Source: Klebsiella phage 150049
Reading direction: 5' to 3' (one strand)
Sequence record: OP045498.1
Length of the DNA: 64,000 nucleotides
This document shows, piece after piece, positions 2,348 through 47,883 of this stretch. The position numbers and the translations under genes are program-made. Each line of letters starts with the position of its first letter. Within the stretch, counting starts at the first letter, position 1. Under the pieces are notes generated by a model. It was not told the origin of the DNA, ran no database searches, and was given only the letters and a program-made list of their open reading frames with translations.

Positions 2348-4166
2348 GACACTAAAATTCAGCAACGTTATGTCTTACGGTAAGGATATCGTAATTCATT
2401 TCGATAAGAATCCAGTTACTCAGTTAATCGGAGGAAACGGTCTAGGGAAGTCCACTATTGCTACTGTTATCGAGGAATTGTTCTATAACAAGAACTCACG
2501 TGGTATCAAGAAGGACGCCCTATTCTCTTGGGGTTCTCCGAAGAAAGAGTACGATATGCACGCTTACTTCTCGAAAGATGAAGATGAGTATGAGTTGCAT
2601 AAAGTAGTTAAATCAACTGCTAAGGTTACACTGATTAAGAATGGAGAAGATATCAGTGGACACACAGCAACTCAAACGTATAAGATGATTGAAGAGATTA
2701 TGGGTGGTGACTTCCAAACATTCACTAAACTGATCTATCAATCTGTAGGTTCCAATCTAGACTTCCTCAAAGCAACTGATGCGACACGTAAAGCTTTTCT
2801 TGTTAATCTGTTCAATCAGGAACAGTATAAAGAGATGTCAGAAACTATTAAGGCTGATCGTAAAGAAGTGGCAAGTACGTTAAGTAACTTGCAAGGCCAG
2901 ATGGCCGTAATTACGAAGATCCTCAACGGAAAAGGCAATCTCGGAAGTTTACAAGAGCCAGTTGAAGTTCCAGAGTTTGATGAAGAACCATTAGCACAAG
3001 AACTTACTGAATCGAAAATTAAGGCGGCATTAGCCAAGTCACAAGAGGCTAATATTACTAAACTCCGTAATTTGGACAAAGCTGTACAAGTTGCCGAACA
3101 ATCTTTCGAGCCTTTCAAAAGTTTCCCTGCGCCCACTGATCAATCTGAAGAGATCTCAAGTGTTACGCGTGACCTAACGATTGTTACCTCACGTGCAGGA
3201 GAAGTCAAGAAACGTTATCAGAAGTTCAAGCAAGAGGCTTCAAATACTGAATGTCCTACTTGTGGTACTCACCTTGATACAACTGCTGCTCAAAAAGCAA
3301 TGGATATGGCTAGAGCAGAATACGATCCTCTGTTTAAAGAGAAACAATCTCTCGAAGCTACATTGGAGCAGTTAAAGAAAGAACAACTCGAGTACGCTGC
3401 GTATACTAGAGCTAAGGATGCTTTAGATAAGGCAGTAGCAGCTAGAGACGAGTTCAAAAATTCAATGAGTGATGCTTCTTTTGAAGAACTCAATGTGCAG
3501 ATCCTACAGGTGCAAATCCGACAATTAGAACAGGAAATCGCTGATGGCCGTTCTAAAGTTGCAATTGCCAAAGAGCATAATGCAAATGTCGAATTAGCCA
3601 ATGCAAAATATAAAGCGAAACTAGAACAGATTGAAAAAGCTGAGGCAGAAATGTCTGAGATAACGTCCAAACTGGATGGAGTATCAGAAGCTGTTGCTGA
3701 TCTTGATATTCTGATCGCTGCATTGAAAAATCTGGTAGGATATAAACTAGAGCATAGTGTGAAAGTATTTGAGGAATTGATTAATAAATATCTTTCTATT
3801 ATGACTGGTGGTAAGTTCGCACTTGGATTTGAACTTGATGAAACTAAATTACAAGTAGTAATCTTCAATGATGGAAACCGCACCAGTATGGAGAACTGCT
3901 CTACTGGTCAGCAGAGTAGAATTAACCTAGCAACTCTGTTAGCTATTCGAATGCTGTTAACATCTATTAGTAAAGTTAATATTAATCTTCTGTTCCTTGA
4001 CGAAGTTATTAGCTTTATTGATACGAAAGGACTTGATACTCTCGTTGAATTATTAAATGAGGAAGATAGTCTGAATTCTATCATTGTTTCTCATGGGCAT
4101 ACGCATCCATTAGCCCATAAGATTACTGTCAAAAAAGATGCAGAAGGATTTTCCTACTTAGAATAA
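2328..4166 (+). CDS. D13: SbcC/Rad50-like ATPase (T5 D13-like), about 612 aa from the ATG at 2328; the ORF track begins at an upstream in-frame Met at 2253
   Basis: Walker A GGNGLGKST near the N-terminus, long coiled-coil middle, C-terminal signature/ABC region with LFLDEVI (Walker B/D-loop). The start at 2328 is chosen as the first Met after the D12 stop region (MSKIIIKTLKF). Confidence 0.8.
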   Translation: MSKIIIKTLKFSNVMSYGKDIVIHFDKNPVTQLIGGNGLGKSTIATVIEELFYNKNSRGIKKDALFSWGSPKKEYDMHAYFSKDEDEYELHKVVKSTAKVTLIKNGEDISGHTATQTYKMIEEIMGGDFQTFTKLIYQSVGSNLDFLKATDATRKAFLVNLFNQEQYKEMSETIKADRKEVASTLSNLQGQMAVITKILNGKGNLGSLQEPVEVPEFDEEPLAQELTESKIKAALAKSQEANITKLRNLDKAVQVAEQSFEPFKSFPAPTDQSEEISSVTRDLTIVTSRAGEVKKRYQKFKQEASNTECPTCGTHLDTTAAQKAMDMARAEYDPLFKEKQSLEATLEQLKKEQLEYAAYTRAKDALDKAVAARDEFKNSMSDASFEELNVQILQVQIRQLEQEIADGRSKVAIAKEHNANVELANAKYKAKLEQIEKAEAEMSEITSKLDGVSEAVADLDILIAALKNLVGYKLEHSVKVFEELINKYLSIMTGGKFALGFELDETKLQVVIFNDGNRTSMENCSTGQQSRINLATLLAIRMLLTSISKVNINLLFLDEVISFIDTKGLDTLVELLNEEDSLNSIIVSHGHTHPLAHKITVKKDAEGFSYLE

Positions 4167-8221: not shown

Positions 8222-8263
8222 TAACTAGTACCTTTATAAGGGGCCTAGGCCCCTACTGTATTA

Positions 8264-11745: not shown

Positions 11746-11750
11746 TATAA

Positions 11751-35194: not shown

Positions 35195-35406
35195 AAGAAT
35201 TCGGGCGGTTTTTCGGGGAGTTTGAGATAACTCAAGAAGAACTAGAAAAGATGGGCATCACTCAGGAGTTGCTACAGGTTCTTCCTAAGTCTTCGGAAAT
35301 TCCAGAAGGATTTATGAGATTTGATGAAGCTATTGAGTATATCAATAATCTTGTTAAGACTGACCCTCTATGGCAGTCCATTCTCAAGCAGTCAGTCCAT
35401 AAATAG
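35191..35406 (+). CDS. Hypothetical protein, 71 aa
   Basis: ATGA-coupled to the previous ORF. Confidence 0.4.
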   Translation: MKEFGRFFGEFEITQEELEKMGITQELLQVLPKSSEIPEGFMRFDEAIEYINNLVKTDPLWQSILKQSVHK

Positions 35407-35564
35407 CGCTAATTTGACTTTTGCCAAATCTCATAAGATTACACATGAAGGTGTGCCCAGAGGTTCCCTAGATGAGAATGAGTCTCATTACCGCCCCGGT
35501 ACTTAGCAAGCTAATAGTCACACCATGTTATCGTTACACAGTGTGACTATTTTATTTTTAATTG

Positions 35565-36299
35565 TTAGGCAACTTTTAATTTATCAATGAATTGTTGCGG
35601 AGTGGTACTATATTCCGCGCGTTCTTCCTCGGTCATACCTTCCCAACACATTTTTAAACGTTCGGCTAGGAATTGATAATCGTTATCATCATCTAACGAT
35701 TCATCAATAAAGGTTTCACCGATCAATGTTACCCCGATTGATAGGATATCATTAACGGCTTGAGCGTCCAGCGTTTTAAATCCAGCACTTGCCGCCGCTG
35801 ATAATACACCTTTATGATCATCAATCATCGTAAAATCAGCGTTAGGATATAGCTGTTTAAACAGTTCAAAGTAATAAGACTTATATACAGCGTCTTTGCT
35901 GTGATATATTTCGCTAACCTTACCCGCTTCAAAGTATTTATGTAATGTATCGCGGGAAAATACGCGAATATTACTATTTCCGCGCCCTCTTAGACTTTGT
36001 TTACGCAAGAAATAATAATCAGATTTACCCATTAAGCGAGCGGTACAAATAAGGTTTAAGGTATTGGGATCATTCATACATTGGCGCATATATTCAACCA
36101 ATGGCAATAAAGAATCCTGCATAATTAAATCATGCTTGCAGGCTTCGCGGGAATATTTATTTAAATCTAAATTCCCATTATCATCAAAACAAGGCCCGAC
36201 ACGGTGCATTGAGTTAATGATTGTACCGTCTAAATCCCAAATCATAACGCGGGAAATATGCGGGAAAGTGCGGGTAATATTCATGTTGACTTGATTCAT
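35565..36299 (-). CDS. dmp: 5'-deoxyribonucleotidase (T5 pre-early Dmp-like, HAD family), 244 aa
   Basis: HAD motif I (MIWDLDGTIIN). Size is the same as T5 Dmp (244 aa). Position near the inferred left terminus, as in T5. Confidence 0.8.
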   Translation of the reverse strand: MNQVNMNITRTFPHISRVMIWDLDGTIINSMHRVGPCFDDNGNLDLNKYSREACKHDLIMQDSLLPLVEYMRQCMNDPNTLNLICTARLMGKSDYYFLRKQSLRGRGNSNIRVFSRDTLHKYFEAGKVSEIYHSKDAVYKSYYFELFKQLYPNADFTMIDDHKGVLSAAASAGFKTLDAQAVNDILSIGVTLIGETFIDESLDDDNDYQFLAERLKMCWEGMTEEERAEYSTTPQQFIDKLKVA

Positions 36300-36386
36300 T
36301 TGTTACATTCTCCATTTAAGGGATTTAGGTTAATTCAATCTTGCCAGCTAATTATATTGGATTAGCTGGCAATGTTCAATTAACTA

Positions 36387-36779
36387 TTAGTTAGTGAGGC
36401 CATACGCTAGCGCGTCACCGATAAAGCTAAGATCTTCACCATGTACGCTAGAGCGAATCCCCGCGCAAGTGTAAACCATCGCGCTAGCTTCGGGATTGCA
36501 GACCGGACACGGCTTAACAACTGCAAACGCTAGACCGGATTTAAGCGCATCAATAATAATTGTTTGCACTGTCAAAGTATCAGCGTAAACGCCTTTTGCT
36601 TTTGTATGGCTTGCCACTTTGCCGGTATCATAAGCAAAGGTAGTAACCTGCAAAGCGTCGTTATAATTCAGCAAATCAAAATTAACTTGCCCCGCCTCGA
36701 CGTGATAACGTTCACCATTAGAATAAACTAAAACGATGGAAGAAGTAGCACGATCAAAAGGAATGTTTTGGTTTTTCAT
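36387..36779 (-). CDS. Hypothetical pre-early protein, 130 aa
   Basis: ORF between A1 and dmp, same strand. Confidence 0.5.
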   Translation of the reverse strand: MKNQNIPFDRATSSIVLVYSNGERYHVEAGQVNFDLLNYNDALQVTTFAYDTGKVASHTKAKGVYADTLTVQTIIIDALKSGLAFAVVKPCPVCNPEASAMVYTCAGIRSSVHGEDLSFIGDALAYGLTN

Positions 36780-36815
36780 GTTTATGACTCCAGATTATTT
36801 AATTACGGGATTAAT

Positions 36816-37073
36816 TTATTTAATTGCAATTGTTAATTGATACGGCGTTAATTCGCCGTTATTAGTAATACTTTGATCATCTAACCATTCCATAAAGTCA
36901 GAATAATCATTAAACGTTAATACGTCATTATCACGGGTATCAACTGCAATAATACAACCTGTATTCGTCGGACTAGCCAACATATAATCGAATTGGTATA
37001 CCTTGCCGCATTCCATATCATCCGGCGTTATATACTGCTTTTTATCCAGTGTTTTAGGTAATACAATATTCAT
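36816..37073 (-). CDS. Hypothetical pre-early protein, 85 aa
   Basis: ORF downstream of A1, same strand. Confidence 0.45.
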   Translation of the reverse strand: MNIVLPKTLDKKQYITPDDMECGKVYQFDYMLASPTNTGCIIAVDTRDNDVLTFNDYSDFMEWLDDQSITNNGELTPYQLTIAIK

Positions 37074-37125
37074 TTAATAAACCTTTTATTAATGGCGGTA
37101 TATTTCAACCGCCGATTAAATTTAA

Positions 37126-38790
37126 TTATGCAAAGAATTTACCGTTCTTAAAGTCAATCAATGTTCTTTGACCGTTTGCATAGGTAATTAAATGCGTTTG
37201 CGTCCAGCTTGACGCGCCCACGTTGTAGCCCATATCAAGGGAACCAGCAACGCCAGCGGTATAAACGCCGCCGTAAATGCTAGCCGTGTGAGTGTGACCA
37301 GTGTTAAGGCGTCCAAGTTTCTTAAACTGCTTAGGATTGCCCCGACTGCCGTTAATGCCATTGTGACCATGTACGCCGCATTCAATGCCAGCGATTTTAA
37401 ACGACTGGTCAGTAGTCAGGAAAATAGCGTTAAATTCGCATCCTGCGACGTTCCGCAAGGCGTAATCTAGCACGTTAAAGGTATCATCCTTTTCAGCAAT
37501 AGCGGCGTAAATCGCAGCGTTTAGACGGTGATACAATTCCGCGTTTGCGGGATCGTCTTTGATGTTAGCATTACGATCATCCAGCCAACGAGATAACGCT
37601 AGATCATGGTTAGATTCAACAATGATTGTTTGAGAGAAATCACGCTCCATAGATTCCAACACGCGACCGGTATCGATAAGATCATCTAGAACTTTGTCAC
37701 GTCCGGCGGCGTATTGTTTAGCAAGGAATACACCACTAGCGCGGTTATGATGATTGCGGGATGTAAAATCGTGCACGTCATGGACAAACTGATATTTAGG
37801 CTTGAGAATATCAAGCAAGCTGTTTTCACTAGCCCATGACGCAACGGCGCATTCATCATCTAATTTTTCGGCGTGAATATCACCATATTGCAAGCCTAAA
37901 ACGTGTCCAGACGTTTCATAACATCCGGCAGGAGTAGCGCAAATATTCAAATCATAAAACATTCCGCTTTCGTCCATTGTTTCAAGCTGGCGCACAAAAA
38001 ATTCGCCGTCGTCGTCAAACTCCACCAGCAAAGCGCCGAAATTATGCAGCGCCTCGGCTTTTTGACCTGCTTTCTGCTGAATGTAGTTTTTAAGCGTAGC
38101 CGTTCCGGTTGAATACATACGGCGCACTACTTCACCTTTTAACGCTGGCACACTTTCAGCGGTAATTTTAGCGTGACCAATTGCCAGACCTTCAATATTT
38201 AAAGCCGTGGCGGTTTCTGCGAATCCTGAAAGCGGATAGTCTGCCGTTGGTAACACGTTAATTTCAGCCATGAAAGCAAAACGGCGATTATTTAAAAATA
38301 CGTTTTTCTCGCAAATATATTTATTAAATGCGGGATCGTATTTAATGCCTTCGTTACCTTCTCCATTCTGGAAGCCGTTTTTATTGTAAATGAATTTACT
38401 AACCAGCAATTCACCGCCGATATATTCAGCGAATTTTTCCAGACTTGCTAAAAAGTTTTTATGCGGGAAAGTATTATTTTGAATCGACGTTAGAATAAAA
38501 CGGCGACCGGATTTAACTTCCCACTGTTCCACGGTACTAGAAACAATTCCCGCCGCTTCGGGGCGATCATCATTTTTAATCGCCTTTTCAGCTTTTGCCG
38601 CTTTCGGTTTTGCTGGCTTATTTGCTTCCAACCAGTCGCAAATTGCGGTTGAATGTTTCGTTGTATCGTAAACAGCTTTTGATATATCGTCGCAAACTTC
38701 CAGCTTAGTAGCGCGTAAACGTTTACCGTAGAAATTAAAATCAGCGGCAAGTTTAACGATCTGGGCTTGTTTTTCTGCGGAAATATTCAT
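37126..38790 (-). CDS. A1: Pre-early protein A1-like (host DNA degradation / second-step transfer factor) with calcineurin-like metallophosphoesterase motifs, 554 aa
   Basis: Size about the same as T5 A1 (556 aa). Motifs GDIHAE...D, ...GNHD-like ESNHD..., GHTHTAS. Order dmp - A1 - A2 as in the T5 terminal repeat. Confidence 0.8.
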   Translation of the reverse strand: MNISAEKQAQIVKLAADFNFYGKRLRATKLEVCDDISKAVYDTTKHSTAICDWLEANKPAKPKAAKAEKAIKNDDRPEAAGIVSSTVEQWEVKSGRRFILTSIQNNTFPHKNFLASLEKFAEYIGGELLVSKFIYNKNGFQNGEGNEGIKYDPAFNKYICEKNVFLNNRRFAFMAEINVLPTADYPLSGFAETATALNIEGLAIGHAKITAESVPALKGEVVRRMYSTGTATLKNYIQQKAGQKAEALHNFGALLVEFDDDGEFFVRQLETMDESGMFYDLNICATPAGCYETSGHVLGLQYGDIHAEKLDDECAVASWASENSLLDILKPKYQFVHDVHDFTSRNHHNRASGVFLAKQYAAGRDKVLDDLIDTGRVLESMERDFSQTIIVESNHDLALSRWLDDRNANIKDDPANAELYHRLNAAIYAAIAEKDDTFNVLDYALRNVAGCEFNAIFLTTDQSFKIAGIECGVHGHNGINGSRGNPKQFKKLGRLNTGHTHTASIYGGVYTAGVAGSLDMGYNVGASSWTQTHLITYANGQRTLIDFKNGKFFA

Positions 38791-38899
38791 AACTAATTCA
38801 ACTCCTATAAAGGGATAAAGATTAAAGCTGGCAATATTGCCAAATATAACGCCTTGCCTGAAGTGAGGACAATTTAAAAGGCGTTATAATTTGCAACAT

Positions 38900-39124
38900 T
38901 TAATTAAGCGGCATTAAACTAGAACAAAAGCCAAATACAATGCCAATTGTAAGAAAGATAATTGACAGATATTTTTGAATGTTCGCGTTTTTGCGGAAAT
39001 TATTTGCGGCGTAAACGTTATTAATTCCGATTATTGCTAGAATTGACCGCGTATAATTCAGAATAAAAGCGGCGGCAATAATAAATAAACCTAAAATAAA
39101 CGCTTCGCTAGGATAAAAGATCAA
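38900..39124 (-). CDS. Hypothetical small membrane protein, 74 aa (two TM helices)
   Basis: Hydrophobic ORF between A2 and A1. Confidence 0.4.
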   Translation of the reverse strand: MIFYPSEAFILGLFIIAAAFILNYTRSILAIIGINNVYAANNFRKNANIQKYLSIIFLTIGIVFGFCSSLMPLN

Positions 39125-39174
39125 GATTATTCTCCTTTAAGGGATAGCGGGGAATATTCCCCGCTAATTAAAAT

Positions 39175-39591
39175 TTATTCACCTGCGGCCTGTTTTACTT
39201 CCTCCGCTACGCCTAACAATTGCGCTACAGCGTCCAGAGTTTCAAGTTTAGCACTTTCAAGGCTTGCCAGATCGTCGGCATCTTTTACGATACCTGAATC
39301 AATGGCGTGTTTAGCGATGACGCGCACATAGTGAGCTTTACGGACACTAGACCCGCCGCCAACTTTACGCGGTTTATCGCTTTTCTGGTAGGCTTTTGCG
39401 CTTGTCAGTTTAGAACGTACAGAAACAGGACTTGCAGCGCCAACGGCGGCGGCAATTTCTTTTAAGCCGTCACTATTCGCAAACTCAATCCCGCTTTTAG
39501 CGACCATTTCAGAATACATAGAAACAGCCTTTTCGGTGTTTTCTTCGTTCCAAGAGAATTTTGCGGTTTTTTCGGTTTTAACGTTAGACAT
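39175..39591 (-). CDS. A2: Pre-early protein A2-like (DNA-binding partner of A1), 138 aa
   Basis: Size and position immediately upstream of A1. Confidence 0.55.
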   Translation of the reverse strand: MSNVKTEKTAKFSWNEENTEKAVSMYSEMVAKSGIEFANSDGLKEIAAAVGAASPVSVRSKLTSAKAYQKSDKPRKVGGGSSVRKAHYVRVIAKHAIDSGIVKDADDLASLESAKLETLDAVAQLLGVAEEVKQAAGE

Positions 39592-39691
39592 AATTTAATA
39601 CTCCATTCAATTATTAATTAAGGGATTATGATTAACTAATGTTAATCCATATATTCCCCATATTTCAGGGGAATATAAAAGTAACACTAAT

Positions 39692-39943
39692 TTATGCTAT
39701 AGCTTGCCATTTATCATCTTTCTGAATGATCTTTACAACGTCGCCAGATTTAACGCGAACATTATAAATAGGCTTGCCGTTGTTACTGCGTTCCGTTTCC
39801 GCATAGACCGCTTCAATCTTATCAAAGGGATCAAGCGCCGCACCTTTGATACGTTCGGCTTTTCCGGTTAATTCATCAGTTTTAGTTACAAAAGGAATGA
39901 AAACAGATTGACCTACTTTCGGCGCGGTAATAACGTTTTGCAT
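39692..39943 (-). CDS. Hypothetical pre-early protein, 83 aa
   Basis: ORF with SD, upstream of A2. Confidence 0.45.
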   Translation of the reverse strand: MQNVITAPKVGQSVFIPFVTKTDELTGKAERIKGAALDPFDKIEAVYAETERSNNGKPIYNVRVKSGDVVKIIQKDDKWQAIA

Positions 39944-40107
39944 TTTTAATACTCCGGTTTATTGGGGATTATTCCACAATAGCGCCTCGATACTTTGAAA
40001 CGCTATTAGATTATAATCCGCTAGGAGTTAGCCTAAACATTACCGTTATCCAAATTTTTAAAGAGCAGTTACTACGGGGAACATCTTAAAACCTATCGGC
40101 TAGCGTG

Positions 40108-40326
40108 TCAAGCGTTTTTTAAACTTTTTTCGATTTGATGTGAGTTATATAAATCAATCATTATATTACGCCACACCATTTCCAGACCTTGCTGCTTACC
40201 TTTCTTGTATTGCTTGAATCTGTATTTTACAGATCGTTGCGCTACTGTCAACAAATTTTTTGTTCTGCTATCTAATGCGCTAGCAGGTTTTGCACTAATC
40301 ACTAAAGCGTTTTTTGATTTGATCAT
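40108..40326 (-). CDS. Hypothetical small basic protein, 72 aa, flanked by a 25-bp inverted repeat
   Basis: Lys/Arg-rich (pI likely above 10). Flanked by IR arms at 40077-40101 and 40358-40382. Confidence 0.45.
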   Translation of the reverse strand: MIKSKNALVISAKPASALDSRTKNLLTVAQRSVKYRFKQYKKGKQQGLEMVWRNIMIDLYNSHQIEKSLKNA

Positions 40327-40787
40327 ATCTGCGATTCCTTATAATGTATAAGTTTACCGCCGATAGGCTTTAAGATGTTCCCTAATTTTTAAAGAGCGTG
40401 GCGGTAAACTTCCCCGCCGTTGTAATCTGGCCTTTCGTTTCCGTCTTGCCGTCCTACGAGATAAATAATAGCAAATTAAGCGAAAGAGACAAGCGTATTT
40501 TTGTAAAGAAGTGTAAAGACAAACGCCACCGCACCACGTCCAGCGGCGCACTAAATTTAATGAAACGGGCGCGCGAATAACACCAAAACAACCATTTTAG
40601 CAAGTAATTTTTTCATTTATATCTGCTCTAGGGTACTTGACAAAATCTAAAATCCTCGTGGTGACGATAACGGCTAGTAGGCAATGCACTTGCCTAGCTT
40701 TTCCTTTGATGCGCTTAGAATCGCTTACAGAGCGTTTTAGACCCTGTTAATAACTTATACAAAAAGCAAAAATGAAATTTAATGAGT

Positions 40788-41165
40788 TATCCACTTGATT
40801 TTTCAAAAAAGTATTTTCTGCTGTTATTTTTCATTGACAAATAAGTTTAGACGTGCATTGATTGGTTAGCAGACTAATAATCCCTAGGATGATAATCACG
40901 CTGGTGGATTGTAACAGCCGAAATAGTTAGCAGACTATTAATACTCTAAAAACCTATTAGCCAACTAACTATTTCATATTATATAATATACTTATAAATT
41001 AAAGAGAAATAATAACTATAAGAAACTATCGGCTAAGTAAGAACCACTATCATTTAGGTTATTCACAAAGTTATCCACAGCACAAAATAACTTGACGCAA
41101 TAGGCGACGTTTTGGTGACTTATCCACAGACTTATATACAGGTTATCCTACTGTATAAATATACA
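40788..41165 (+). promoter_or_regulatory. Cluster of DnaA-box-like sequences, all in the same orientation: TTATCCACT 40788-40796, TTATTCACA 41059-41067, TTATCCACA 41071-41079, TTATCCACA 41120-41128, TTATCCTAC 41142-41150; plus the 16-mer CTGTATAAATATACAG at 41150-41165
   Basis: Read directly. Sits in the non-coding region 40600-41415. Confidence 0.6.
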
Positions 41166-41415
41166 GGGTAAAAGGGTAGCAGTAACAACCGCAATCAAAT
41201 TTAAGCGGCCTAGAACGCATTCTAAGCGGTTTTCTCACTGCTACCCTTATTATAATAAAGCCTTGTGTACGCTTACAGAGAGCTAGAAATAGAAAACGCG
41301 CGGTTATCATAAAAACAGGCAGTAAGCAAGAAATAAAAAACCTTTTCTTTTTTCTTGCCCCTAGCGAACAATTATCTATATCATTCACTCACCGATTAAC
41401 GAGGGAGACAAAGAA

Positions 41416-42411
41416 ATGTCTACTGTAAGAATTGCAGTACCAGCAAACGCCACTATTATTAAGGGTAGTTTGCGCAACCTGCTAGACGGATCAAGTCCAG
41501 CAAGCCTACAACATACGGCGGCAATGGTTGAAAAGATTCACGATGATATTTTAGATAATAATGATACTCATTATTGTTTAAGTGATTTCACACAACTACT
41601 AGACCCTACCCGCGTTCTAGTGCTTTACAACCGTGACTATCACATCATGCGAAATCAGCGGGGAAGCGATATTGATTTTATCATTGTAGGTCACGACGAA
41701 AAAAGCTATATTGCCCGTGGTTACAATGTACAAGAAAAGGAAATGGTTTTCGCTACTCGCGTAAATGGTATTAATTCCAGCGATGTAGAAGATTTACTAT
41801 CTAGTATTTGGGGCGAATTGACAAGCGCCATTAAACGTGCTGATAGTGACGCAATCGAAACAACTGGCGTATTGTGTTTTGAACGCGCTAGCGGTAACAT
41901 GTTGATCCCTAACGATTATTTAGGGTATGGGAATGAATCAAACATTGCAAACGCTGGATTTACACTAAAACCAGTTGACAACGTAGCAAAACAGGCTGTA
42001 AACTCTCAAACTTCAAGCGCAAATGCGCAAACTACTGAAAATAAAGGAAATATTATGTCTAAAGTATCTTCTATCGTTGCTGCTAACAAATCCGCCGTTG
42101 TAAACGCTGCTAAACTGGAAGCGGGTAAAATTGCATTGACTCAAATTACAAAAGTAGCGGCTAAAAAAGCGCCGTTTATGATTAAAGGTTATATTGATAC
42201 TCCGATTGGTCGCGTAGTGATCGCTAACCTGTTAAGCGTAGCGGTTGACCAGTACGCCCCGACTAACGCAAAAGCTAAAGCGGTAGCAGGCGCGGCAATG
42301 GAAGCGGCAATGTTGGAAATGGTGCAGAGTTTCAATATTGCTGAAATGATCGATGAAATGGTAAAAGGTATTGACATTTCTACCTTTACCCAAAGCGCCG
42401 AAACAGAATAA
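41416..42411 (+). CDS. Hypothetical protein, 331 aa (opposite-strand cluster in the terminal-repeat region)
   Basis: Good SD (GAGGGAGACAAAGAAATG). Followed by an intrinsic terminator at 42420-42447. C-terminal half is Ala/Lys-rich. Confidence 0.6.
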   Translation: MSTVRIAVPANATIIKGSLRNLLDGSSPASLQHTAAMVEKIHDDILDNNDTHYCLSDFTQLLDPTRVLVLYNRDYHIMRNQRGSDIDFIIVGHDEKSYIARGYNVQEKEMVFATRVNGINSSDVEDLLSSIWGELTSAIKRADSDAIETTGVLCFERASGNMLIPNDYLGYGNESNIANAGFTLKPVDNVAKQAVNSQTSSANAQTTENKGNIMSKVSSIVAANKSAVVNAAKLEAGKIALTQITKVAAKKAPFMIKGYIDTPIGRVVIANLLSVAVDQYAPTNAKAKAVAGAAMEAAMLEMVQSFNIAEMIDEMVKGIDISTFTQSAETE

Positions 42412-42475
42412 TAATTACTAGCGGGGATTATTTCCCCGCTTTACTATTTCCCTGTTAATTGTTAGGAGACTAATT

Positions 42476-42970
42476 ATGTCAGAAGAAAAATATGGCTTTT
42501 CGCTAGAAAGTGTGAATGAAGCTAAACACGATATGATCGTTTTAGTTGATTGTCATACTGGCTATTGCGGGGAGGGCTGGACGGAGGAACATTTTGTTCC
42601 CGCTGGCTGTGATCTGGACGCTTTCGCAAACGAACACGCATATGATAATGCTTCTCGTTTCGGTAGCGATGGGGAAGAAGATGAAGAAACAGGGGAATGG
42701 ATTGAAAATGATAATGTATATGCGAGTCTTTATCATTATCAATTGAGTAAGTCCGGTACTTATGTAAATGGCGGCGATCCTATTAATACCGTTATGAAAC
42801 TAATTATTAAACACGGTGGCGCGGAAATAATTGGTAACAAGGCGTTATTATACGCAAATCGATTAAAACAGCTTGTTTATATTCCTGATAATTCCCGTTG
42901 GGATGAATATGCCGTTTTACAGAAAGAATTAAAACGCTGTTTCAACATTGAAGCGTTAGAAATAGTCTAA
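42476..42970 (+). CDS. Hypothetical acidic protein, 164 aa
   Basis: SD AGGAGACTAATTATG. Followed by a terminator hairpin GGTCGCCTATGTTGGCGGCC plus T-run at 42981-43011. Confidence 0.55.
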   Translation: MSEEKYGFSLESVNEAKHDMIVLVDCHTGYCGEGWTEEHFVPAGCDLDAFANEHAYDNASRFGSDGEEDEETGEWIENDNVYASLYHYQLSKSGTYVNGGDPINTVMKLIIKHGGAEIIGNKALLYANRLKQLVYIPDNSRWDEYAVLQKELKRCFNIEALEIV

Positions 42971-43076
42971 TGTAAAGTTTTGTAAAGGTCGCCTATGTTG
43001 GCGGCCTTTTTTGTTATAATGCCTTTACACCGAAACGGTGGATTGAAAATTTCCCTGATTTCTAGGAGGCGTTAAA

Positions 43077-43307
43077 ATGGTTGCTTTCTCTTCTTCTGAC
43101 TCTCTTTTCACTGGTAAAGGTTGGGTGTCTAATCGCTGGATTATTGATCAGATGGTTTCTGAATTTGGGATTGGTAAAACTTATGTTACCATTCAGGCGC
43201 TTTATGATAATGATAAGATTGACCAGCAAACCGCCGGATTTTTGCTGGACACGTTGAAATCAGAACATTGCACCAAAAAGCAAGCGGCGAAAATTGTTTT
43301 AATGTAA
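43077..43307 (+). CDS. Hypothetical protein, 76 aa
   Basis: SD AGGAGGCGTTAAAATG. Terminator at 43308-43338 (ACGGGGCGTTACTTTCGCCCC). Confidence 0.5.
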   Translation: MVAFSSSDSLFTGKGWVSNRWIIDQMVSEFGIGKTYVTIQALYDNDKIDQQTAGFLLDTLKSEHCTKKQAAKIVLM

Positions 43308-43354
43308 ATAATAACGGGGCGTTACTTTCGCCCCTCATTCCCTTACTAGGAGTC

Positions 43355-43573
43355 ATGCAAATGTTAAAGAATGTTTCCCTTGCCCGTTCTAAAGGTTTTA
43401 AGCTGGTGGATGTTAACACGTTTGAGCGTCCAGATTGTAAAATCGAATATGTAGCACGCAACAAAAACGCGTTTCGTGTTACTGAAAAGAAATTTGACAA
43501 GCGCGGAAATTTGGTAGCCGAAACGGTTAAACACTTTGCCACCTTTTACGCTGCTTTTCGTGGGGTATTATGA
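43355..43573 (+). CDS. Hypothetical basic protein, about 72 aa (the start at 43355 or 43361 is preferred over the track's 43268)
   Basis: SD TAGGAGTCATGCAAATG. The track ORF starting at 43268 overlaps the terminator of the previous gene, so the later start was chosen. Confidence 0.45.
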   Translation: MQMLKNVSLARSKGFKLVDVNTFERPDCKIEYVARNKNAFRVTEKKFDKRGNLVAETVKHFATFYAAFRGVL

Positions 43574-43682
43574 GATCCTTATATATTGCTCTAGCGTTTG
43601 CTACCGTTGGCGTTGTTTGCTCATTCGCTGCATTTGTTTTAAAAATGTACCTGATATTTTCCCAGCTTTAGGAGCTTGACAA

Positions 43683-44027
43683 ATGGTTATATACGAGGGT
43701 AATCGTTTTGTTACTAATTGCCGTCCGGCATTATTAGCAAGCTATTTAAATCAGCTTTCACCAGTTTATAAAGGCGTGGTTAATATCTATGAAGGCAAAG
43801 CACATTATAAGATTAATGCCGTTGTTGCTCGCGAGCTTGCCTTCCAGTTTCTTACTTTTGGCGCATGTGATGTACAGGTTATGGGTGAGCCATTAGTAGC
43901 AGAAAATGAAAATGAATTTATTGACATTTTCCGCAAAGTATGTACAGAGCGCCTGATTATGAAAGGCGCATATATTCAATCAACCGCTGAAAGTATCGAA
44001 ACAGCGTTTCGAAAGGTGGCGCAATGA
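43683..44027 (+). CDS. Hypothetical protein, 114 aa
   Basis: SD AGGAGCTTGACAAATG. ATGA-coupled to the next ORF. Confidence 0.5.
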   Translation: MVIYEGNRFVTNCRPALLASYLNQLSPVYKGVVNIYEGKAHYKINAVVARELAFQFLTFGACDVQVMGEPLVAENENEFIDIFRKVCTERLIMKGAYIQSTAESIETAFRKVAQ

Positions 44028-44224
44028 CTAAAGATGAAGCGTTAGAAAAAATGAAACAAGGTTTCAAAGTTAGTAATCAATATTTTACTAGCGATGAATT
44101 TTTGTACATGAAAGAAAACGGCGTGATCATGTCGGAAGATGGTTACAATTTTAATGATTGGTTTTTCAATATTCGCAAGGGGGAGGAATGGAAGCTAGAC
44201 GGTTGGAGCGTTTACCGTGAATAG
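44024..44224 (+). CDS. Hypothetical protein, 66 aa
   Basis: Translationally coupled to the previous ORF. Confidence 0.45.
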   Translation: MTKDEALEKMKQGFKVSNQYFTSDEFLYMKENGVIMSEDGYNFNDWFFNIRKGEEWKLDGWSVYRE

Positions 44225-44347
44225 CTGGTGGCGAAAAACACAAAGCCATAAATCTAATAATACCGCTGGGAAACATTCCCAGCGTTTACGATTTGGTAAT
44301 GGCTTTACAATGATATTGATAATCATTCTCATTCTAGGAGCAATGGC

Positions 44348-44587
44348 ATGGCTGTAAGAATTTTACGATATGTAGAACGTAAAGAAACCGATATTATGCA
44401 ACATCATTTAACTGATGGGCAATACGCGCAATTTTTAGAAATGCGGAAAAGCGGAGCTAGTACGGCGGCGCTAGGGGCGTGGATCAATTCAGTCTCAACG
44501 TGTACGCATTTTGACTCATATGGATATACGCCAGCCGAAACCGTCCAGATCTTTGACGACTACGAGAAGGAATACATAGCAGACTAA
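44348..44587 (+). CDS. Hypothetical protein, 79 aa
   Basis: SD TAGGAGCAATGGCATG. Terminator at 44588-44622 (ACGGGGCGCAACTACCGGCCCCGCC plus T-run). Confidence 0.5.
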   Translation: MAVRILRYVERKETDIMQHHLTDGQYAQFLEMRKSGASTAALGAWINSVSTCTHFDSYGYTPAETVQIFDDYEKEYIAD

Positions 44588-44734
44588 TAATAACGGGGCG
44601 CAACTACCGGCCCCGCCTTTTCTGCCTGCAAACAAATTTCCCCTTATTAAAATACCTCCTCCAAAAATAAACGCGTTAGGATGCGTTACAGAGCGTTTTA
44701 GAGCTATATTAGAGTTATTCACTACGCAGGAATA

Positions 44735-44842
44735 CTGTATAAATATACAGTAGAATAACCTGTTGATAAGTCTGTTGATAACGCCTCAAAATCGCTAGGA
44801 TTTTGTCAAGTCAAATCGTGCTGTTAATAAACCTGTGGATAA
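44735..44842 (-). promoter_or_regulatory. Second DnaA-box cluster, in the opposite orientation to the first: TGTTGATAA 44761-44769, TGTTGATAA 44773-44781, TGTGGATAA 44834-44842 (reverse complements of TTATCAACA/TTATCCACA); plus CTGTATAAATATACAG at 44735-44750
   Basis: Read directly. Mirror image of the cluster at 40788-41165. Confidence 0.6.
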
Positions 44843-44870
44843 CTTAAATAACAGTGTTTCTCACTTCGCT

Positions 44871-45015
44871 TTCTAAATGCAAATCATTCTCATTATGCGA
44901 CTCATTCGCATTCCGCCAATCAAATGATAACCATTCTCATTCCTCTTTCTAAACGCGAATCATTCTCATTCGCATTCAACTTCTCAAATGCGAATCAATC
45001 TCATTATCATTCGCA
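44871..45015 (+). repeat. Three degenerate tandem repeats of about 35-45 bp (TTCTMAAYGCRAATCAWTCTCATT...CATTCGCATT)
   Basis: Unit starts near 44871, 44947 and 44980, read directly. Contains the TGCRAATC core shared with the downstream 13-mer array. Confidence 0.6.
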
Positions 45016-45056
45016 TTTCGGCAGGCAGGGCATTTTCATTTTTGCCCTGCGCTTTT

Positions 45057-45794
45057 GTGCAAATCCGACATTTGCCCCCACGGATTACGTGCCAGCGTGC
45101 ATGTGCGAATCCGACAATTTTTGGTAGTGTGCAAATCCGATGGGAAATATTTTTATAGTGTGCAAATACGACAATGAATTTTCCTAAAAACTCGGGCAGA
45201 CTCGTGCTGCGCACAAATCCAGCCGTATATGTGCAAATACGACATGAAATTTCTAGGAATGAGATGTGCAGATCCTACAAGATTTTTGTGACTTCGATGA
45301 TAGGGTGTGTGATTGTGTGGGTTTGGGGAGAAGTGCGAATCCGATGAGATTTTGGGAGGAACTACGGGAGGAGCAGCGGTGATGGTGCTTTAGCACCGGT
45401 TTGCTGCGTTTTTGGGGGTAATGCGGGATGTTTTGGCTAGAATTGAGATTAGGGGAGATTATGCGAAATTTTATTAGCAAAATAGGGCAAAATAGCTTGA
45501 CAAGTGAAAATTCCTGTGGCTCTAAAAACTCAGGCAATCATGGGCCTTCGGCCCGAAATAATGCTGCTATTTTCAGTGTTCCTAAAAACTTTGGAGACTC
45601 CTATCAATGTGCAAATCCGACCATAAATTTCTAGAAACACAGTGTGCAAATCCGATAGTAATTTCCAGAAATGTGTTTTGGAAAAATGTCTACTAGAAAT
45701 AACCGCCCTGTATTAAACCGCCCTGTATTAAACCGCCTATTGCTGGAGTTTTTAGGAACAGGAGAAACTGCCCTATAACATGTGCAAATACGAC
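45057..45794 (+). repeat. Dispersed direct-repeat array of a 13-bp motif GTGC(A/G)AAT(C/A)CGA(C/T): 9 good copies (45057, 45103, 45129, 45160, 45231, 45333, 45609, 45644, 45782) plus 2 degenerate (45209, 45266). Interspersed are 4 copies of CCTARAAACTYRGGNRNNC and a tandem AACCGCCCTGTATT x2
   Basis: Read directly. All copies are on the same strand. No ORF longer than 70 codons. Candidate injection-stop signal / terminal-repeat boundary / protein-binding array. Confidence 0.7.
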
Positions 45795-46148
45795 AGGATT
45801 TTCCTAGAAACTTAGGAGTCTACTAGAAAGTGTTGTGCCATCCTAGGAAGAGCGGCGGCAACAAGTGTATCATCTTGAATGTAAATTATGTGGACAAAAG
45901 TTTTACCTTTTATTTAAATATAAGATCCCCCAATCTCGTAAGTCTGCTGCTCTAGGCGTTCAAGATCTGTATGCTAATCCCGTGATAACTGCTGCAGAAT
46001 ACATCCTAACGCCAGAGGCGCTGGTGTACTCTTCGAGTTGGGATAGCAATAATCTTGTTGCCTAGAGCTAAAAACAGAAGTTGTTTTTAATCTATGAGAT
46101 TATTATAACATGTGCCTTAATGAGTTGTCAAGAAGATTTTGTTAACGT

Positions 46149-46880
46149 TTATTCCTTCCGCTTGTATTTGAGAACGATACCCTTCGAGACCATGAAGAGG
46201 AAAGTTGCAAGATAGGAATGTGGGGATTTTAGCGCATCATAATCTACAGTCCCGAAAGAACCTTCGCCAAAAACTTCGGAGTTCTCAAAGGTTGGTAGTA
46301 AACGTGCTAATCCGACAGCTCCTAGAATCTTAAAGAATTGATCCCAGTCATTTAACATTGCTTTATGTGCAGACTGTAAGATTAACGGCATCTCTATTTT
46401 CTTTTCGAGACATAGATGAACCTGCGCAATCGTAGAAGCAATCCCTAGCAATACTTCATCTTTTGTATAAGGGAAGCCTTCTTCTTTTCTTTGGAGTCTA
46501 GGAAGATGATCATATTCACAACGTTTAGGTGGAATAAACTTTTCATCAGGATAGAGTTCTAATGCAACCTTAACATTCCCTTCTCTAAATGTAGGAAGTT
46601 CCTGATCCGCAAATACATGGTATGAATTTGCTTTGAACCCTACAATATTATCACCAACAGAATTGATGATCTTTCTCATTGCAATATAAGCGGGAGATAA
46701 TGTTACGAAATTTTCTTCTTTATTATATTTAACAATTCCAGCTTCTGTGTAAGCTGCGGGATGAAACTCAGAACAGAATGCTACTGCGTGAGCTTCATCT
46801 GGAGTTAGCTCAGAAACACATTTACCATCTGCATTTCTAGCTAACTTAATAATAGTCTTTAAGTTCTCACTAATACTCAT
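46149..46880 (-). CDS. Hypothetical early protein, 243 aa
   Basis: First gene of the - strand early block. Abuts the next gene (ATGA overlap). Confidence 0.55.
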   Translation of the reverse strand: MSISENLKTIIKLARNADGKCVSELTPDEAHAVAFCSEFHPAAYTEAGIVKYNKEENFVTLSPAYIAMRKIINSVGDNIVGFKANSYHVFADQELPTFREGNVKVALELYPDEKFIPPKRCEYDHLPRLQRKEEGFPYTKDEVLLGIASTIAQVHLCLEKKIEMPLILQSAHKAMLNDWDQFFKILGAVGLARLLPTFENSEVFGEGSFGTVDYDALKSPHSYLATFLFMVSKGIVLKYKRKE

Positions 46881-47227
46881 ATATCCCAGGCCTGATCTCC
46901 AGTGGACTTTTTAACTGGTCTTTCTTTTAATGTTATGACTCTATCTATAGCGGGATCTAATTTAATCCATATTAGATTTAGTTGAGCAACAATATGGGAC
47001 ATGTTTCTAGCTGTGAAAGGTATATCTTTTGGCAGCCTAAATACTAGCTCTTTGAGATCATTCATTAAATGAGCATCAGCAAAGAATAAGTACGATAGCC
47101 TTTCCACACGTTCATATTCATCCTCTTTAATTTCAAAGATCCCAATAGTTTCTTCGTTATTAAAAGACTTTTCATTGAGAAAAGCCACCTTGCAGTGGCC
47201 TATAGTAAATTCAGTAACTAGTTCCAT
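46877..47227 (-). CDS. Hypothetical early protein, 116 aa
   Basis: Coupled ORF. Confidence 0.5.
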   Translation of the reverse strand: MELVTEFTIGHCKVAFLNEKSFNNEETIGIFEIKEDEYERVERLSYLFFADAHLMNDLKELVFRLPKDIPFTARNMSHIVAQLNLIWIKLDPAIDRVITLKERPVKKSTGDQAWDI

Positions 47228-47883
47228 TAATTAAAACCCTTACTATTAGTCAGATCAACAAGAGCTTCCATAACAGCATCAGCTAAGCTCTCATTCCTAC
47301 TAGATGGTGTACTCAAATGAATAGTGTATGAGTTCCTAGAAACTCCAGAGTCCTCGAACTGTTTCTGTGCTATCTCTTGGAACTTCTCGGTAGATCCCGT
47401 ACCACCATCTGCAATCTTTAGAGCATCAATTTTAGTACCGATTACCATTCCATTAGCTAGAATGGGTTCTCCACTAGCTTCCCCAAACTTATATGATTGC
47501 GTATTACTTACCACGCCACCACAAGGAACATTGTGCATATCCGACATTAATCTTTTATCAGAATTAGTCAGTGCAGTAATATGCCAAGGGTCATTACGAG
47601 GAATAGTTGTAGTACTCGGGCGATTCACTTCAGTCTTCACGAGTTTGTATCCTGCATCGATCAGTGCATTAATCAGATTATCAGCCGGGATGCGAGCTGT
47701 GCCAAAGATCTTACGAGCATTCATGAGCTTAGCCTGAAACTCTTTGCAAGCCTGAAGATCAATGTGCAAAAACGACAGTTGCATAGATTTAAACTGTACT
47801 GTAGCAGTCAGATCTTTAAAGCTGTAATCCCATGTGTCGAGTTCATGATCTGCAACTACTTTAATGGTTTGTTGTGTAAACAT
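47227..47883 (-). CDS. Hypothetical early protein, 218 aa
   Basis: Coupled ORF. Confidence 0.5.
   Translation of the reverse strand: MFTQQTIKVVADHELDTWDYSFKDLTATVQFKSMQLSFLHIDLQACKEFQAKLMNARKIFGTARIPADNLINALIDAGYKLVKTEVNRPSTTTIPRNDPWHITALTNSDKRLMSDMHNVPCGGVVSNTQSYKFGEASGEPILANGMVIGTKIDALKIADGGTGSTEKFQEIAQKQFEDSGVSRNSYTIHLSTPSSRNESLADAVMEALVDLTNSKGFN

What the first reader, a model, noticed from the sequence alone, without database searches (positions are those of the whole stretch)
44871..45800. 1.5-kb gene-free region packed with a TGCRAATC-family repeat array (9-11 copies of GTGCRAATMCGAY plus 3 longer tandem units) at the terminal-repeat / early-region junction
Between the last pre-early terminator (44622) and the first early gene (46149) there is no credible ORF. 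Instead it holds three tandem units of about 40 bp (44871-45015), then 9 good and 2 degenerate copies of a 13-mer all in one orientation at irregular 25-275 bp spacing. Interspersed are 4 copies of CCTARAAACTYRGG..., a tandem AACCGCCCTGTATT x2 (45710-45737), and GCGC-containing contexts (TGCGC directly before two 13-mers; GCGC is the reported T5 nick-site core). This is not CRISPR-like: the repeats are short and the spacers irregular. Given the genome map, this is where the terminal repeat ends. It is therefore a candidate for the injection-stop signal, the terminase cut / end-definition site, or a partition-like binding array for a phage protein such as A2 or TerS.
Basis: partly seen in the sequence, partly recalled or inferred. 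Interest (0 to 1): 0.75.

Follow-up and report, generated by a model that had tools for sequence, protein, structure and literature searches.

The report
Known T5 terminal-repeat-end repeat array
The repeat-packed gene-free stretch is real, but it is the already described "Repeat Region 3 / injection-stop region" at the right end of the terminal repeat of T5-like phages; what its 13-base repeats do is still unknown.

Summary
GTGCRAATMCGAY occurs 9 times exactly in 45057-45794, all on the + strand (0.01 expected by chance). The ~35-bp tandem units, the AACCGCCCTGTATTA tandem and the CCTARAAACTYNGG copies are also present, and the region is non-coding.

It is not new. The window is a T5-like phage, and 44600-45930 is collinear with T5 "Repeat Region 3". 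GenBank AY587007 already annotates these elements as direct repeats D and C, palindromes and major nick 1. Davison (bioRxiv 10.1101/866236) discusses the region as the injection-stop candidate.

By homology, the terminal repeat ends inside the array at 45522-45527. CCCTGCGC at 45045-45052 is the 7.9 % nick site, 4 bp before copy 1.

What I add:
- In 23 T5-like genomes, 204 copies are forward and none reverse.
- Four lineages show a left and a right cluster bracketing the most conserved block, which carries the repeat end.
- The left end of the terminal repeat has no such array.
- A conserved consensus promoter fires leftward into the array.

My best guess, at low confidence, is that the repeats are one-directional binding sites for a phage protein that marks the terminal-repeat end for concatemer processing. 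A role in the injection pause or restart is the main rival.

The parts
44594..44623 (+). GC-rich hairpin followed by a T-run. It ends the rightward pre-early genes and sits at the position of T5 palindrome C, annotated there as a putative terminator.
   Evidence: Sequence read; T5 annotation; collinearity. The consensus scan did not flag it as a terminator.
44733..44752 (.). Perfect 20-bp palindrome TACTGTATAAATATACAGTA, equivalent to T5 palindrome D. It is conserved even in Vibrio phage VCPH.
44735..44865 (.). The IRD'-spacer-IRC' inverted-repeat element. It carries two pairs of DnaA(-like) boxes, each pair separated by 3 bp: TGTTGATAA at 44761-44769 and 44773-44781, TGTTAATAA at 44822-44830, and the consensus TGTGGATAA at 44834-44842. 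Its inverted partner lies at 41035-41166.
   Evidence: sequence; T5 6022-6152 matches window 44865-44735; T5 9332-9463 matches window 41166-41035; Davison preprint.
44858..45040 (+). Five ~35-37-nt tandem units equivalent to T5 direct repeat C / DRE. Each holds an internal palindrome of the AATGCGAAT...ATTCGCATT type.
   Evidence: family D2; period 35; hairpins as single-stranded DNA, z = -4.7; T5 annotation.
45025..45052 (+). Hairpin GCAGGGCA/TGCCCTGC, equivalent to T5 palindrome J. It overlaps CCCTGCGC (45045-45052), the homologue of T5 'major single-stranded nick 1, 7.9%'. RTTAC follows 31 nt downstream.
   Evidence: PhageTerm 'repeat ends' of Seabear and Seafire fall at CCCTGCG(C)|.
45057..45345 (+). 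Left cluster of the 13-mer (T5 direct repeat D). Copies at 45057, 45103, 45129, 45160, 45231, 45266 (2 mismatches) and 45333. All lie inside the terminal repeat.
45281..45500 (+). G-run segment with nine G3+ runs and no C3+ runs. It has the strongest positive GC skew of the 64-kb window (+0.59) and corresponds to T5 direct repeat A copies 2-3. The equivalent segments of IME260 and VCPH contain G-quadruplex-type motifs.
   Evidence: T5 annotation; My1 sequence.
45497..45534 (+). The best-conserved block of the region: TTGACA-N11-CTGTGGCTCTAAAAACTCAGG. By homology the terminal repeat ends at 45522 (T5 position) to 45527 (Stitch position). The end falls within one copy of the CCTARAAACTYNGG motif.
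45542..45554 (.). Invariant hairpin GGGCC-TTC-GGCCC, 20 bp right of the repeat end. By eye, IME260 and VCPH have a hairpin of different sequence at the same place.
45609..45794 (+). Right cluster of the 13-mer, with copies at 45609, 45644 and 45782. It lies outside the terminal repeat, so it is single-copy in virion DNA.
45701..45737 (+). AACCGCCCTGTATTA in 2.5 tandem copies. The AACCGCCCT core is repeated at the same place in T5, IME260 and My1.
45183..45816 (+). CCTARAAACTYNGG family, with copies at 45183, 45521, 45581 and 45803 on + and 45743 on -. In several units it follows a 13-mer after about 9-10 nt (13-mer, then aNNNAWTTT, then the motif).
46102..46131 (-). Consensus sigma-70 promoter (TTGACA-18-TGT-TATAAT, 12 of 12) immediately after the stop codon of the first early gene. 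It points leftward into the repeat array. A promoter match at the same relative position occurs in T5, Stitch, IME260, My1 and VCPH.
46304..47776 (+). Three outlying 13-mer copies with one mismatch each (46304, 47533, 47764), inside early genes that are coded on the - strand. They have the same orientation as the array and are conserved in Stitch.
3495..3522 (+). A pair of 13-mers (GTGCAGATCCTAC and GTGCAAATCCGAC) inside the SbcC-like D13 gene. T5 annotates the equivalent pair as direct repeat D copies 11-12. A Klebsiella T5-like phage lacks it.
35455..35455 (+). Inferred left boundary of the terminal repeat, from ...ATTACACATGAAGGTG|TG aligned to T5 position 1 / 111614. The window therefore holds one collapsed repeat copy, about 35455-45525. 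There is no 13-mer array at this boundary.

Best explanation
Identity (near certain): this is the orthologue, in an Epseptimavirus-like phage, of T5 'Repeat Region 3'. That is the non-coding right end of the ~10-kb terminal repeat. From left to right it carries paired DnaA boxes, 35-bp palindromic units, the 7.9 % nick site, the direct repeat D array and the terminal-repeat boundary.

Mechanism (inferred, low confidence): the 15-16-bp element (A)T-GTGCRAATCCGAC-A is an asymmetric binding site for a sequence-specific DNA-binding protein. That protein is more likely phage-encoded than a universally conserved host protein. The copies form a one-directional landing pad in two clusters: seven copies inside the repeat and three or more outside it. 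The clusters bracket a highly conserved ~90-bp block (TTGACA...CTGTGGCTC|TAAAAACTCAGG plus a GC hairpin), and the terminal repeat ends in that block.

I propose that the bound array marks this block as the site where concatemers are cut to form the right genome end. This would resemble the TerS-binding boxes that flank the cut in SPP1 pac, or that lie beside cosN in lambda. Only the right boundary needs such a pad.

The left cluster starts 4 bp after the nick and about 55 bp after the calculated first-step-transfer shear point. In the left terminal repeat, the same protein-DNA complex or sequence could therefore also take part in the pause or restart of injection.

Shown: sequence, homology, orientation, bracket architecture and conservation. 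Inferred: protein binding, the identity of the binder and any role in cutting.
For: - Collinearity with T5 9194-10409 and its annotated features.
- The motif is far above chance: 10 exact matches against 0.01 expected.
- In T5, all 12 copies with at most 1 mismatch in 112 kb are on +.
- In 23 T5-like genomes, 204 copies are forward and 0 reverse within -1500..+3000 of the end block. Their positions are nearly fixed at -463, -417, -391, -360, -289/-279, -254 and (-187) on the left, and +89, +124 and (+261) on the right.
- The same left-cluster / G-run / end-block / right-cluster layout recurs in Klebsiella phage IME260, where the spacers have diverged beyond BLAST detection, and in Pectobacterium phage My1.
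- The annotated repeat end of T5 lies 20 nt after the conserved TTGACA, that of My1 22 nt, Stitch 24 nt and IME260 40 nt.
- 45480-45570 is the most conserved stretch of the region, at 0.96-0.99.
- Information content rises sharply at position -1 and falls after +13, which indicates a discrete 15-16-bp site.
- The left boundary of the repeat has no array.
- In Vibrio phage VCPH the DnaA boxes stay consensus, but the 13-mer changes to GTGCGRAWNCKAC. This argues for a co-evolving, probably phage-encoded, binder.
- The region is non-coding, has no Rfam match, and the 13-mers are not promoter-like.
Against: - No binding or cutting data exist for any protein.
- The T5 family TerS (window 31759-32241; 95 % identical to T5 'SciB') is genetically linked by name to nicking, and nick sites share CCCTGCGC-N29-31-RTTAC rather than the 13-mer. 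TerS may therefore read a different sequence.
- Copies inside genes, at 3495/3510 and 46304-47764 here and at 12074 in T5, are hard to reconcile with a pure end-definition signal. They fit better with a process that runs along the genome.
- A ~0.5-kb HNH gene sits inside the left cluster in some relatives, so precise geometry is not required.
- Vibrio phage VCPH shows no obvious right cluster.
- The polarity of T5 packaging is not settled in what I could read. PMC3517423 states that the left end is packed first, while general last-in-first-out reasoning suggests the right end.
- Two records place the repeat end elsewhere: cott162 about 200 bp upstream, and Seabear/Seafire at the nick.
Confidence: 0.35

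Rival explanations
1. The array is part of the injection-stop or restart signal. In the left terminal repeat, the 13-mers begin where first-step transfer halts. They could hold the DNA in the particle or channel. Alternatively they could be oriented loading sites for the pre-early A1/A2 proteins, which pull in the rest of the genome.
For: - The literature treats the whole non-coding region as the injection-stop region.
- The array starts at T5 9672, just right of the calculated shear point at 9618 and 4 bp from the 7.9 % nick.
- Strict co-orientation, together with outlying copies in the first ~2.3 kb of second-step DNA and in D13, suits a directional process that runs along the genome.
- A2 is described as a DNA-binding protein required for second-step transfer.
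Against: [quoted passage not shown]
- If the shear estimate is correct, the 13-mers have not yet entered the cell at the pause, so cytoplasmic proteins cannot reach them.
- This model does not need a right cluster beyond the repeat end, or a highly conserved block at that end.
- A 0.5-kb insertion inside the left cluster is tolerated.
- A2 has no recognisable DNA-binding domain in Pfam.
Confidence: 0.28
2. The region is a replication-origin-like module. DnaA boxes plus iteron-like 13-mers, and transcription from the flanking leftward promoter, would recruit host DnaA and a phage initiator.
For: - Two pairs of DnaA(-like) boxes are conserved from Escherichia phages to Vibrio phages.
- There is a one-directional repeat array.
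- A conserved consensus promoter reads into the region.
- A G-run segment with extreme GC skew lies next to the array.
Against: - The spacing of the 13-mers is irregular (26-276 bp) and not helically phased, unlike iterons.
- No initiator gene is recognisable next to the array.
- Cumulative GC skew shows no switch here.
- Published electron microscopy places T5 origins near the genome centre, as cited by Davison.
Confidence: 0.1
3. The function lies in RNA. The conserved leftward promoter at 46131-46102 would make a non-coding transcript of roughly 0.5 kb or more, containing reverse-complement 13-mers (UGUCGGAUUUGCACA) as repeated protein-binding or regulatory motifs.
For: - A perfect promoter is conserved in five lineages and has no ORF of 30 aa or more downstream.
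- A hairpin conserved in position lies at the repeat end.
Against: - There is no Rfam match.
- T5 and this phage differ in sequence between the promoter and the array (T5 alignment stops at 45932).
- The left cluster lies beyond the possible stop hairpin.
- The D13 pair would appear in the opposite sense in mRNA.
- All 13-15 positions are conserved, which suits duplex DNA recognition better.
Confidence: 0.07

Closest known systems
Bacteriophage T5 left-terminal-repeat 'Repeat Region 3', the injection-stop-signal region (direct repeats D, C and A, palindromes C-J, IRD'-spacer-IRC'). Annotated in GenBank AY587007; discussed in Davison, bioRxiv 10.1101/866236.
   Same: - The order of all elements is collinear at ~77 % identity.
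- The 13-mer, its orientation and nearly the same copy positions are shared.
- The nick motif lies 4 bp before copy 1.
- The repeat end lies between the two clusters.
- Extra copies occur in D13 and in an early gene.
   Different: - Copy-level variation only: three copies here read GTGCAAATACGAC.
- There is an extra copy at 45333.
- T5 has longer DRE units and a different insert right of the array.
Terminase recognition sites with repeated boxes next to the cut: SPP1 pacL-pacC-pacR, and lambda cosB R-sites beside cosN (recalled from established knowledge, not tested here).
   Same: Short repeated asymmetric boxes lie on one or both sides of a sequence-defined end-forming site. Only one of the two genome ends has them.
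   Different: - No TerS binding has been shown.
- The clusters span ~300 bp each and lie 90-460 bp from the end.
- Outlying copies occur elsewhere in the genome.
- T5 has 10-kb exact terminal repeats rather than cos or headful ends.
T7 arrays of short repeats (SRL/SRR) flanking the 160-bp terminal repetition, and the transcription-dependent concatemer-junction signal (recalled from memory as a lead only).
   Same: Short-repeat arrays sit at the borders of an exact terminal repeat, and a promoter reads toward the junction.
   Different: The motif, scale and polymerase differ. The role of the T7 arrays is itself unclear. None of this was tested here.
Iteron plus DnaA-box plasmid-type replication origins.
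   Same: DnaA boxes lie next to a one-directional array of short direct repeats.
   Different: The spacing is irregular and not phased, there is no adjacent initiator gene, and T5 origins are reported elsewhere.

Membership tests
T5-type terminal-repeat Repeat Region 3 (injection-stop region) of Demerecviridae | Collinear sequence homology with T5 9194-10409 | tested here: met
   BLAST aligns T5 9208-10581 to window 44611-45932 at 76.9 %. A four-way alignment agrees. In total, 540 phage records match.
T5-type terminal-repeat Repeat Region 3 (injection-stop region) of Demerecviridae | Series of direct repeat D copies (GTGCRAATCCGAY), all in one orientation | tested here: met
   There are 9 exact copies here and 9 in the homologous T5 segment, where they are annotated as DR-D 1-9. 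Across 23 genomes, 204 are forward and 0 reverse.
T5-type terminal-repeat Repeat Region 3 (injection-stop region) of Demerecviridae | IRD'-spacer-IRC' with DnaA-box pairs separated by 3 bp, and an inverted partner upstream in the repeat | tested here: met
   The boxes lie at 44761-44781 and 44822-44842. The partner lies at 41035-41166.
T5-type terminal-repeat Repeat Region 3 (injection-stop region) of Demerecviridae | Lies at, and overruns, the right boundary of the long terminal repeat | tested here: met
   This is met by homology only. The ends of T5, Stitch, IME260 and My1 map to the block at 45497-45534. The physical ends of this phage cannot be tested here.
T5-type terminal-repeat Repeat Region 3 (injection-stop region) of Demerecviridae | Cis-acting arrest of DNA transfer at ~8 % | not testable with these tools
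   This needs infection experiments.
Terminase recognition (pac/cos-type) site | Repeated boxes adjacent to a sequence-defined end-forming site | tested here: met
   The clusters lie at -463..-187 and +89..+261 around the conserved end block, and three more lineages show the same layout.
Terminase recognition (pac/cos-type) site | Specific binding by the small terminase subunit | not testable with these tools
Iteron-type replication origin | Iterons of 17-22 bp in regular, helically phased spacing | tested here: not met
   Spacings are 46, 26, 31, 71, 35, 67, 276, 35 and 138 bp.
Iteron-type replication origin | Adjacent gene for the iteron-binding initiator | tested here: inconclusive
   The one flanking gene tested, the early gene at 46149-46880, has unknown function (phrog_8993, no Pfam match).
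CRISPR array | Repeats of 23-55 bp separated by unique spacers of similar length | tested here: not met
   The repeat is 13-16 bp, the spacing is irregular, and the spacers are conserved between phages.

The most novel reading that the evidence does not exclude
The direct repeat D array, together with the highly conserved TTGACA...CTGTGGCTC|TAAAAACTCAGG-hairpin block, is the long-sought end-definition (pac-like) site of T5-like phages. A specific phage protein would read it. The same nucleoprotein pad in the left repeat would set where first-step transfer pauses, linking packaging-end formation and two-step injection through one cis element.
Probability: 0.2. Interest if true: 0.6.

Novelty: already known. 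Interest (0 to 1): 0.27.

Why it matters
The injection-stop signal of T5 has been an open problem since the 1960s. How T5-like phages define and duplicate 10-kb terminal repeats is also unresolved. This locus is where both questions meet, but it has already been recognised and named.

The value added here is modest and consists of four points:
- The 13-mer array is strictly one-directional across the family.
- It brackets the conserved repeat-end block in four lineages.
- It is absent from the other repeat boundary.
- It is flanked by a conserved inward-facing promoter.

These points turn 'a jumble of repeats' into a few separable elements that can be mutated one at a time.

There is also a practical point. 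PhageTerm-derived 'terminal repeat' ends in some deposited T5-like genomes coincide with the nick site and are probably about 470 bp short of the true end.

Tried and rejected
- Coding potential: rejected. There is no codon-phase signal, and frameshifting indels occur in relatives.
- Known RNA family: no credible hit. Only three chance-level Rfam matches appeared at E up to 1 (E 0.45-0.8, well below gathering scores).
- 13-mers as promoters: the consensus scan finds none in 45057-45800.
- A second array at the left boundary of the repeat: none found. The G-run cluster at 35009-35230 lies in a coding ORF.
- Conservation of the D13 internal pair as a test of function: it is present in T5 but absent from a Klebsiella T5-like phage, so this is uninformative.
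- The motif outside the family: pairs of 13-mers in IMG/VR occur almost entirely on contigs of about 100-123 kb, the size of T5-like genomes, plus three shorter contigs (47, 86 and 96 kb) that I did not classify. No independent co-occurrence with a protein family could be used.
- Origin-like skew switch: none.
- Host-factor consensus comparisons by eye (CRP, Fis, IHF, MatP, Chi, KOPS): no convincing match. This rests on memory and is not a test.
- Pfam on A2 and A1: no DNA-binding domain recognised.
- Davison 2015 (PMC4743489), Wang 2005 and Heusterspreute 1987 could not be read in the held library. Their content is cited only through the GenBank record and the 2020 preprint.
Full report
**What the window is.** The 1.55-kb stretch 44600-46150 matches 523 phage records. 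Almost all are T5-like Demerecviridae; the best are Salmonella phages Stitch and Seabear at about 91.6 %. BLAST of T5 (AY587007.1) against the window shows collinearity. T5 105-6481 maps to window 35546-41489, and T5 9208-10581 maps to 44611-45932. The junction between the unique region and the right terminal repeat (T5 111614) maps to about 35454. The window therefore carries one collapsed copy of the long terminal repeat, about 35455 to about 45525. Late genes lie to its left and early genes to its right.

**Check of the observation.** GTGCRAATMCGAY has 10 exact matches in 64 kb, against 0.01 expected. Nine lie at 45057-45794 on the + strand. With mismatches allowed, a degenerate copy appears at 45266. 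Three one-mismatch copies appear at 46304, 47533 and 47764, and a pair appears at 3495/3510; all are on +.
- The tandem units have a 35-nt period, with five copies at 44858-45040. They form hairpins when folded as single-stranded DNA (z = -4.7).
- AACCGCCCTGTATTA is present in 2.5 copies at 45701-45737.
- CCTARAAACTYNGG is enriched, with 8 matches against 0.33 expected, five of them in the region.
- The ORFs in the region show no codon-position bias in their variable sites. Four of the six carry frameshifting indels in 13 relatives. Rfam finds nothing credible.

The description is therefore accurate apart from details.

**It is already described.** The T5 GenBank record annotates, in the homologous segment:
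- palindromes C-J;
- inverted repeats D' and C';
- direct repeat C copies 1-4;
- 'major single-stranded nick 1, 7.9%' at 9661-9668;
- direct repeat D copies 1-9 at 9672-10409;
- direct repeat A copies 2-3;
- the end of the left terminal repeat at 10139.

It also annotates DR-D copy 10 at 12073 and copies 11-12 inside exo2/D13. Davison's preprint calls this 'Repeat Region 3' and lists 'nine DRD repeats'. It notes that the region overruns the repeat by 270 bp, documents the paired DnaA boxes in 25 T5-like phages, and treats the region as the probable injection-stop signal. It states that the function of the repeats cannot be guessed. [quoted passage not shown]

**Anatomy in window coordinates.** From left to right:
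- a terminator-like hairpin at 44594-44623;
- palindrome D at 44733-44752;
- IRD'-spacer-IRC' at 44735-44865, with two pairs of DnaA(-like) boxes 3 bp apart and an inverted partner at 41035-41166;
- 35-nt units at 44858-45040;
- a hairpin overlapping CCCTGCGC at 45045-45052;
- the left 13-mer cluster at 45057-45345;
- a G-run segment at 45281-45500, which has the strongest positive GC skew in the window;
- a block at 45497-45534 that contains the inferred repeat end;
- a GC hairpin at 45542-45554;
- the right 13-mer cluster at 45609-45794, with the AACCGCCCT tandem;
- a perfect sigma-70 promoter on the - strand at 46131-46102, directed into the array.

**Where the repeat ends.**
- The T5 end falls after CTGTGGATC.
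- The Stitch end falls 4 nt further on.
- The IME260 end falls 20 nt further on.
- For Pectobacterium phage My1, I derived the end by comparing the two repeat copies of its 122-kb contig. It falls 22 nt after the same conserved TTGACA.

In the window this corresponds to 45522-45527. The 'repeat ends' that PhageTerm gave for Seabear and Seafire fall exactly at CCCTGCG(C)|, the nick site. That is indirect experimental support for a strong discontinuity there. It also suggests that those records under-call the repeat by about 470 bp.

**The nick signature.** The four annotated T5 major nick sites share CCC(T)GCGC followed 29-31 nt later by RTTAC. The window has this full signature at 3125, 45045 and 58496, all on +.

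**Comparative results that go a little beyond the literature I could read.**
- In 23 T5-like genomes, all 204 13-mers within -1500..+3000 of the end block are in the forward orientation. Their positions are almost fixed.
- Klebsiella phage IME260 (Sugarlandvirus) has spacers that have diverged beyond BLAST detection. It keeps the same 13-mer in a left cluster of 5 and a right cluster of 5-6 around the same end block. My1 does the same.
- In Vibrio phage VCPH the DnaA boxes remain consensus, but the repeat has changed to GTGCGRAWNCKAC. A binder that co-evolves with the phage fits this better than a universally conserved host protein.
- Information content defines a discrete element of 15-16 bp, (A)T-GTGCRAATCCGAC-A, followed by a weak T-tract.
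- 45480-45570 is the most conserved stretch of the region.
- The left boundary of the repeat has no array.
- The inward-facing promoter is matched at the same relative place in T5, Stitch, IME260, My1 and VCPH.
- Some relatives carry an HNH gene of about 0.5 kb inside the left cluster, so exact spacing is dispensable.
- Pairs of 13-mers in IMG/VR occur almost entirely on contigs the size of T5-like genomes.

**Mechanism.** Nothing here shows function. The bracket layout around a conserved end-forming block, and the presence of an array at only one of the two repeat boundaries, resemble terminase recognition sites with repeated boxes. This is my preferred reading, at a confidence of about 0.35.

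Several things count against it:
- The family's TerS (31759-32241; phrog_3802; 95 % identical to the T5 gene annotated 'SciB') is linked by name to nicking. Nick sites share a different sequence.
- There are outlying copies inside genes.
- Packaging polarity is unsettled.

The main rival, at about 0.28, is a role in the injection pause or restart. It is favoured by the array starting right at the 7.9 % point and by its genome-wide co-orientation. It is disfavoured because the 13-mers lie just beyond the calculated shear point, and because the right cluster and the end block are not needed in that model. Origin-like and RNA-level readings are less likely. The confidences do not add up to 1; the remainder is for functions not considered here.

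**Verdict.** This is a correct and careful observation of a feature that is already annotated and discussed for T5. Its function remains open, and the comparative points above make it easier to dissect experimentally.

Noticed in passing
window 46102-46131 (- strand): A perfect consensus sigma-70 promoter (TTGACA-18-TGT-TATAAT) lies directly after the stop codon of the first early gene. It points into the gene-free repeat region, and no ORF of 30 aa or more lies downstream. A promoter match sits at the same relative position in T5, Stitch, IME260, My1 and Vibrio phage VCPH. The part of the T5 record I read (8000-12000) annotates no promoter there.
   Followed up: partly
window 45281-45500: This segment has the strongest positive GC skew of the whole 64-kb window (+0.59), with nine G3+ runs and no C3+ run. 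The adjacent 44811-45040 is among the most negative (-0.44). The equivalent segment just inside the repeat end contains G-quadruplex-type motifs in IME260 and VCPH and is G-run-rich in My1. The conservation is of composition rather than sequence.
   Followed up: partly
window 3125, 45045, 58496 (+ strand): There are three sites with the bipartite signature shared by the four annotated T5 major nicks (CCCTGCGC, then RTTAC 29-31 nt later). They appear to correspond to T5 nicks 4, 1 and 2. The T5 nick 2 site and its homologue at 58496 are followed by a CCTAGAAACTCTGG-type motif, the family that also carries the repeat end.
   Followed up: partly
L002 3453 (Seabear 8522) and L014 921 (Seafire 9592): The 'terminal repeat' ends that PhageTerm predicted in these deposited genomes fall exactly at the nick motif CCCTGCG(C)|. 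That is about 470 bp left of the repeat end seen in T5, Stitch, IME260 and My1. The nick probably mimics a terminus in read-start statistics.
   Followed up: yes
window 31759-32241 (- strand): The 160-aa protein directly upstream of the large terminase matches PHROG 'terminase small subunit'. It is 95 % identical to the T5 gene annotated 'SciB'. One paper says that sciA and sciB are the genes responsible for nicking. This suggests that the terminase itself may make the T5 nicks.
   Followed up: partly
window 3495-3522: Two adjacent 13-mers lie inside the SbcC-like D13 gene, where they encode VQILQVQIRQ. They lie about 370 bp downstream of the nick-4-type site. T5 has the equivalent pair (annotated DR-D 11-12), but a Klebsiella T5-like phage does not.
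   Followed up: yes
window 35400-35455: The inferred left end of the terminal repeat is preceded by a nick-like arrangement, (A)GCGC-N28-ATTACACATGAAGGTG|. It is conserved between T5 and this phage, which hints that end formation and nicking use related signals.
   Followed up: no
L062 683-1222 and L063 702-1241: Salmonella phages SE3 and FGS017 carry an HNH homing-endonuclease gene inside the left 13-mer cluster, after copy 3. It roughly doubles the distance from the nick to the repeat end.
   Followed up: yes
window 3250-3750 versus 44730-45830: The record labelled 'Campylobacter phage A148' (MG065642.1) is 100 % identical over the D13 segment but only 88 % over the repeat region. This suggests mosaicism among close relatives. 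The host label is also odd for a T5-like genome.
   Followed up: no
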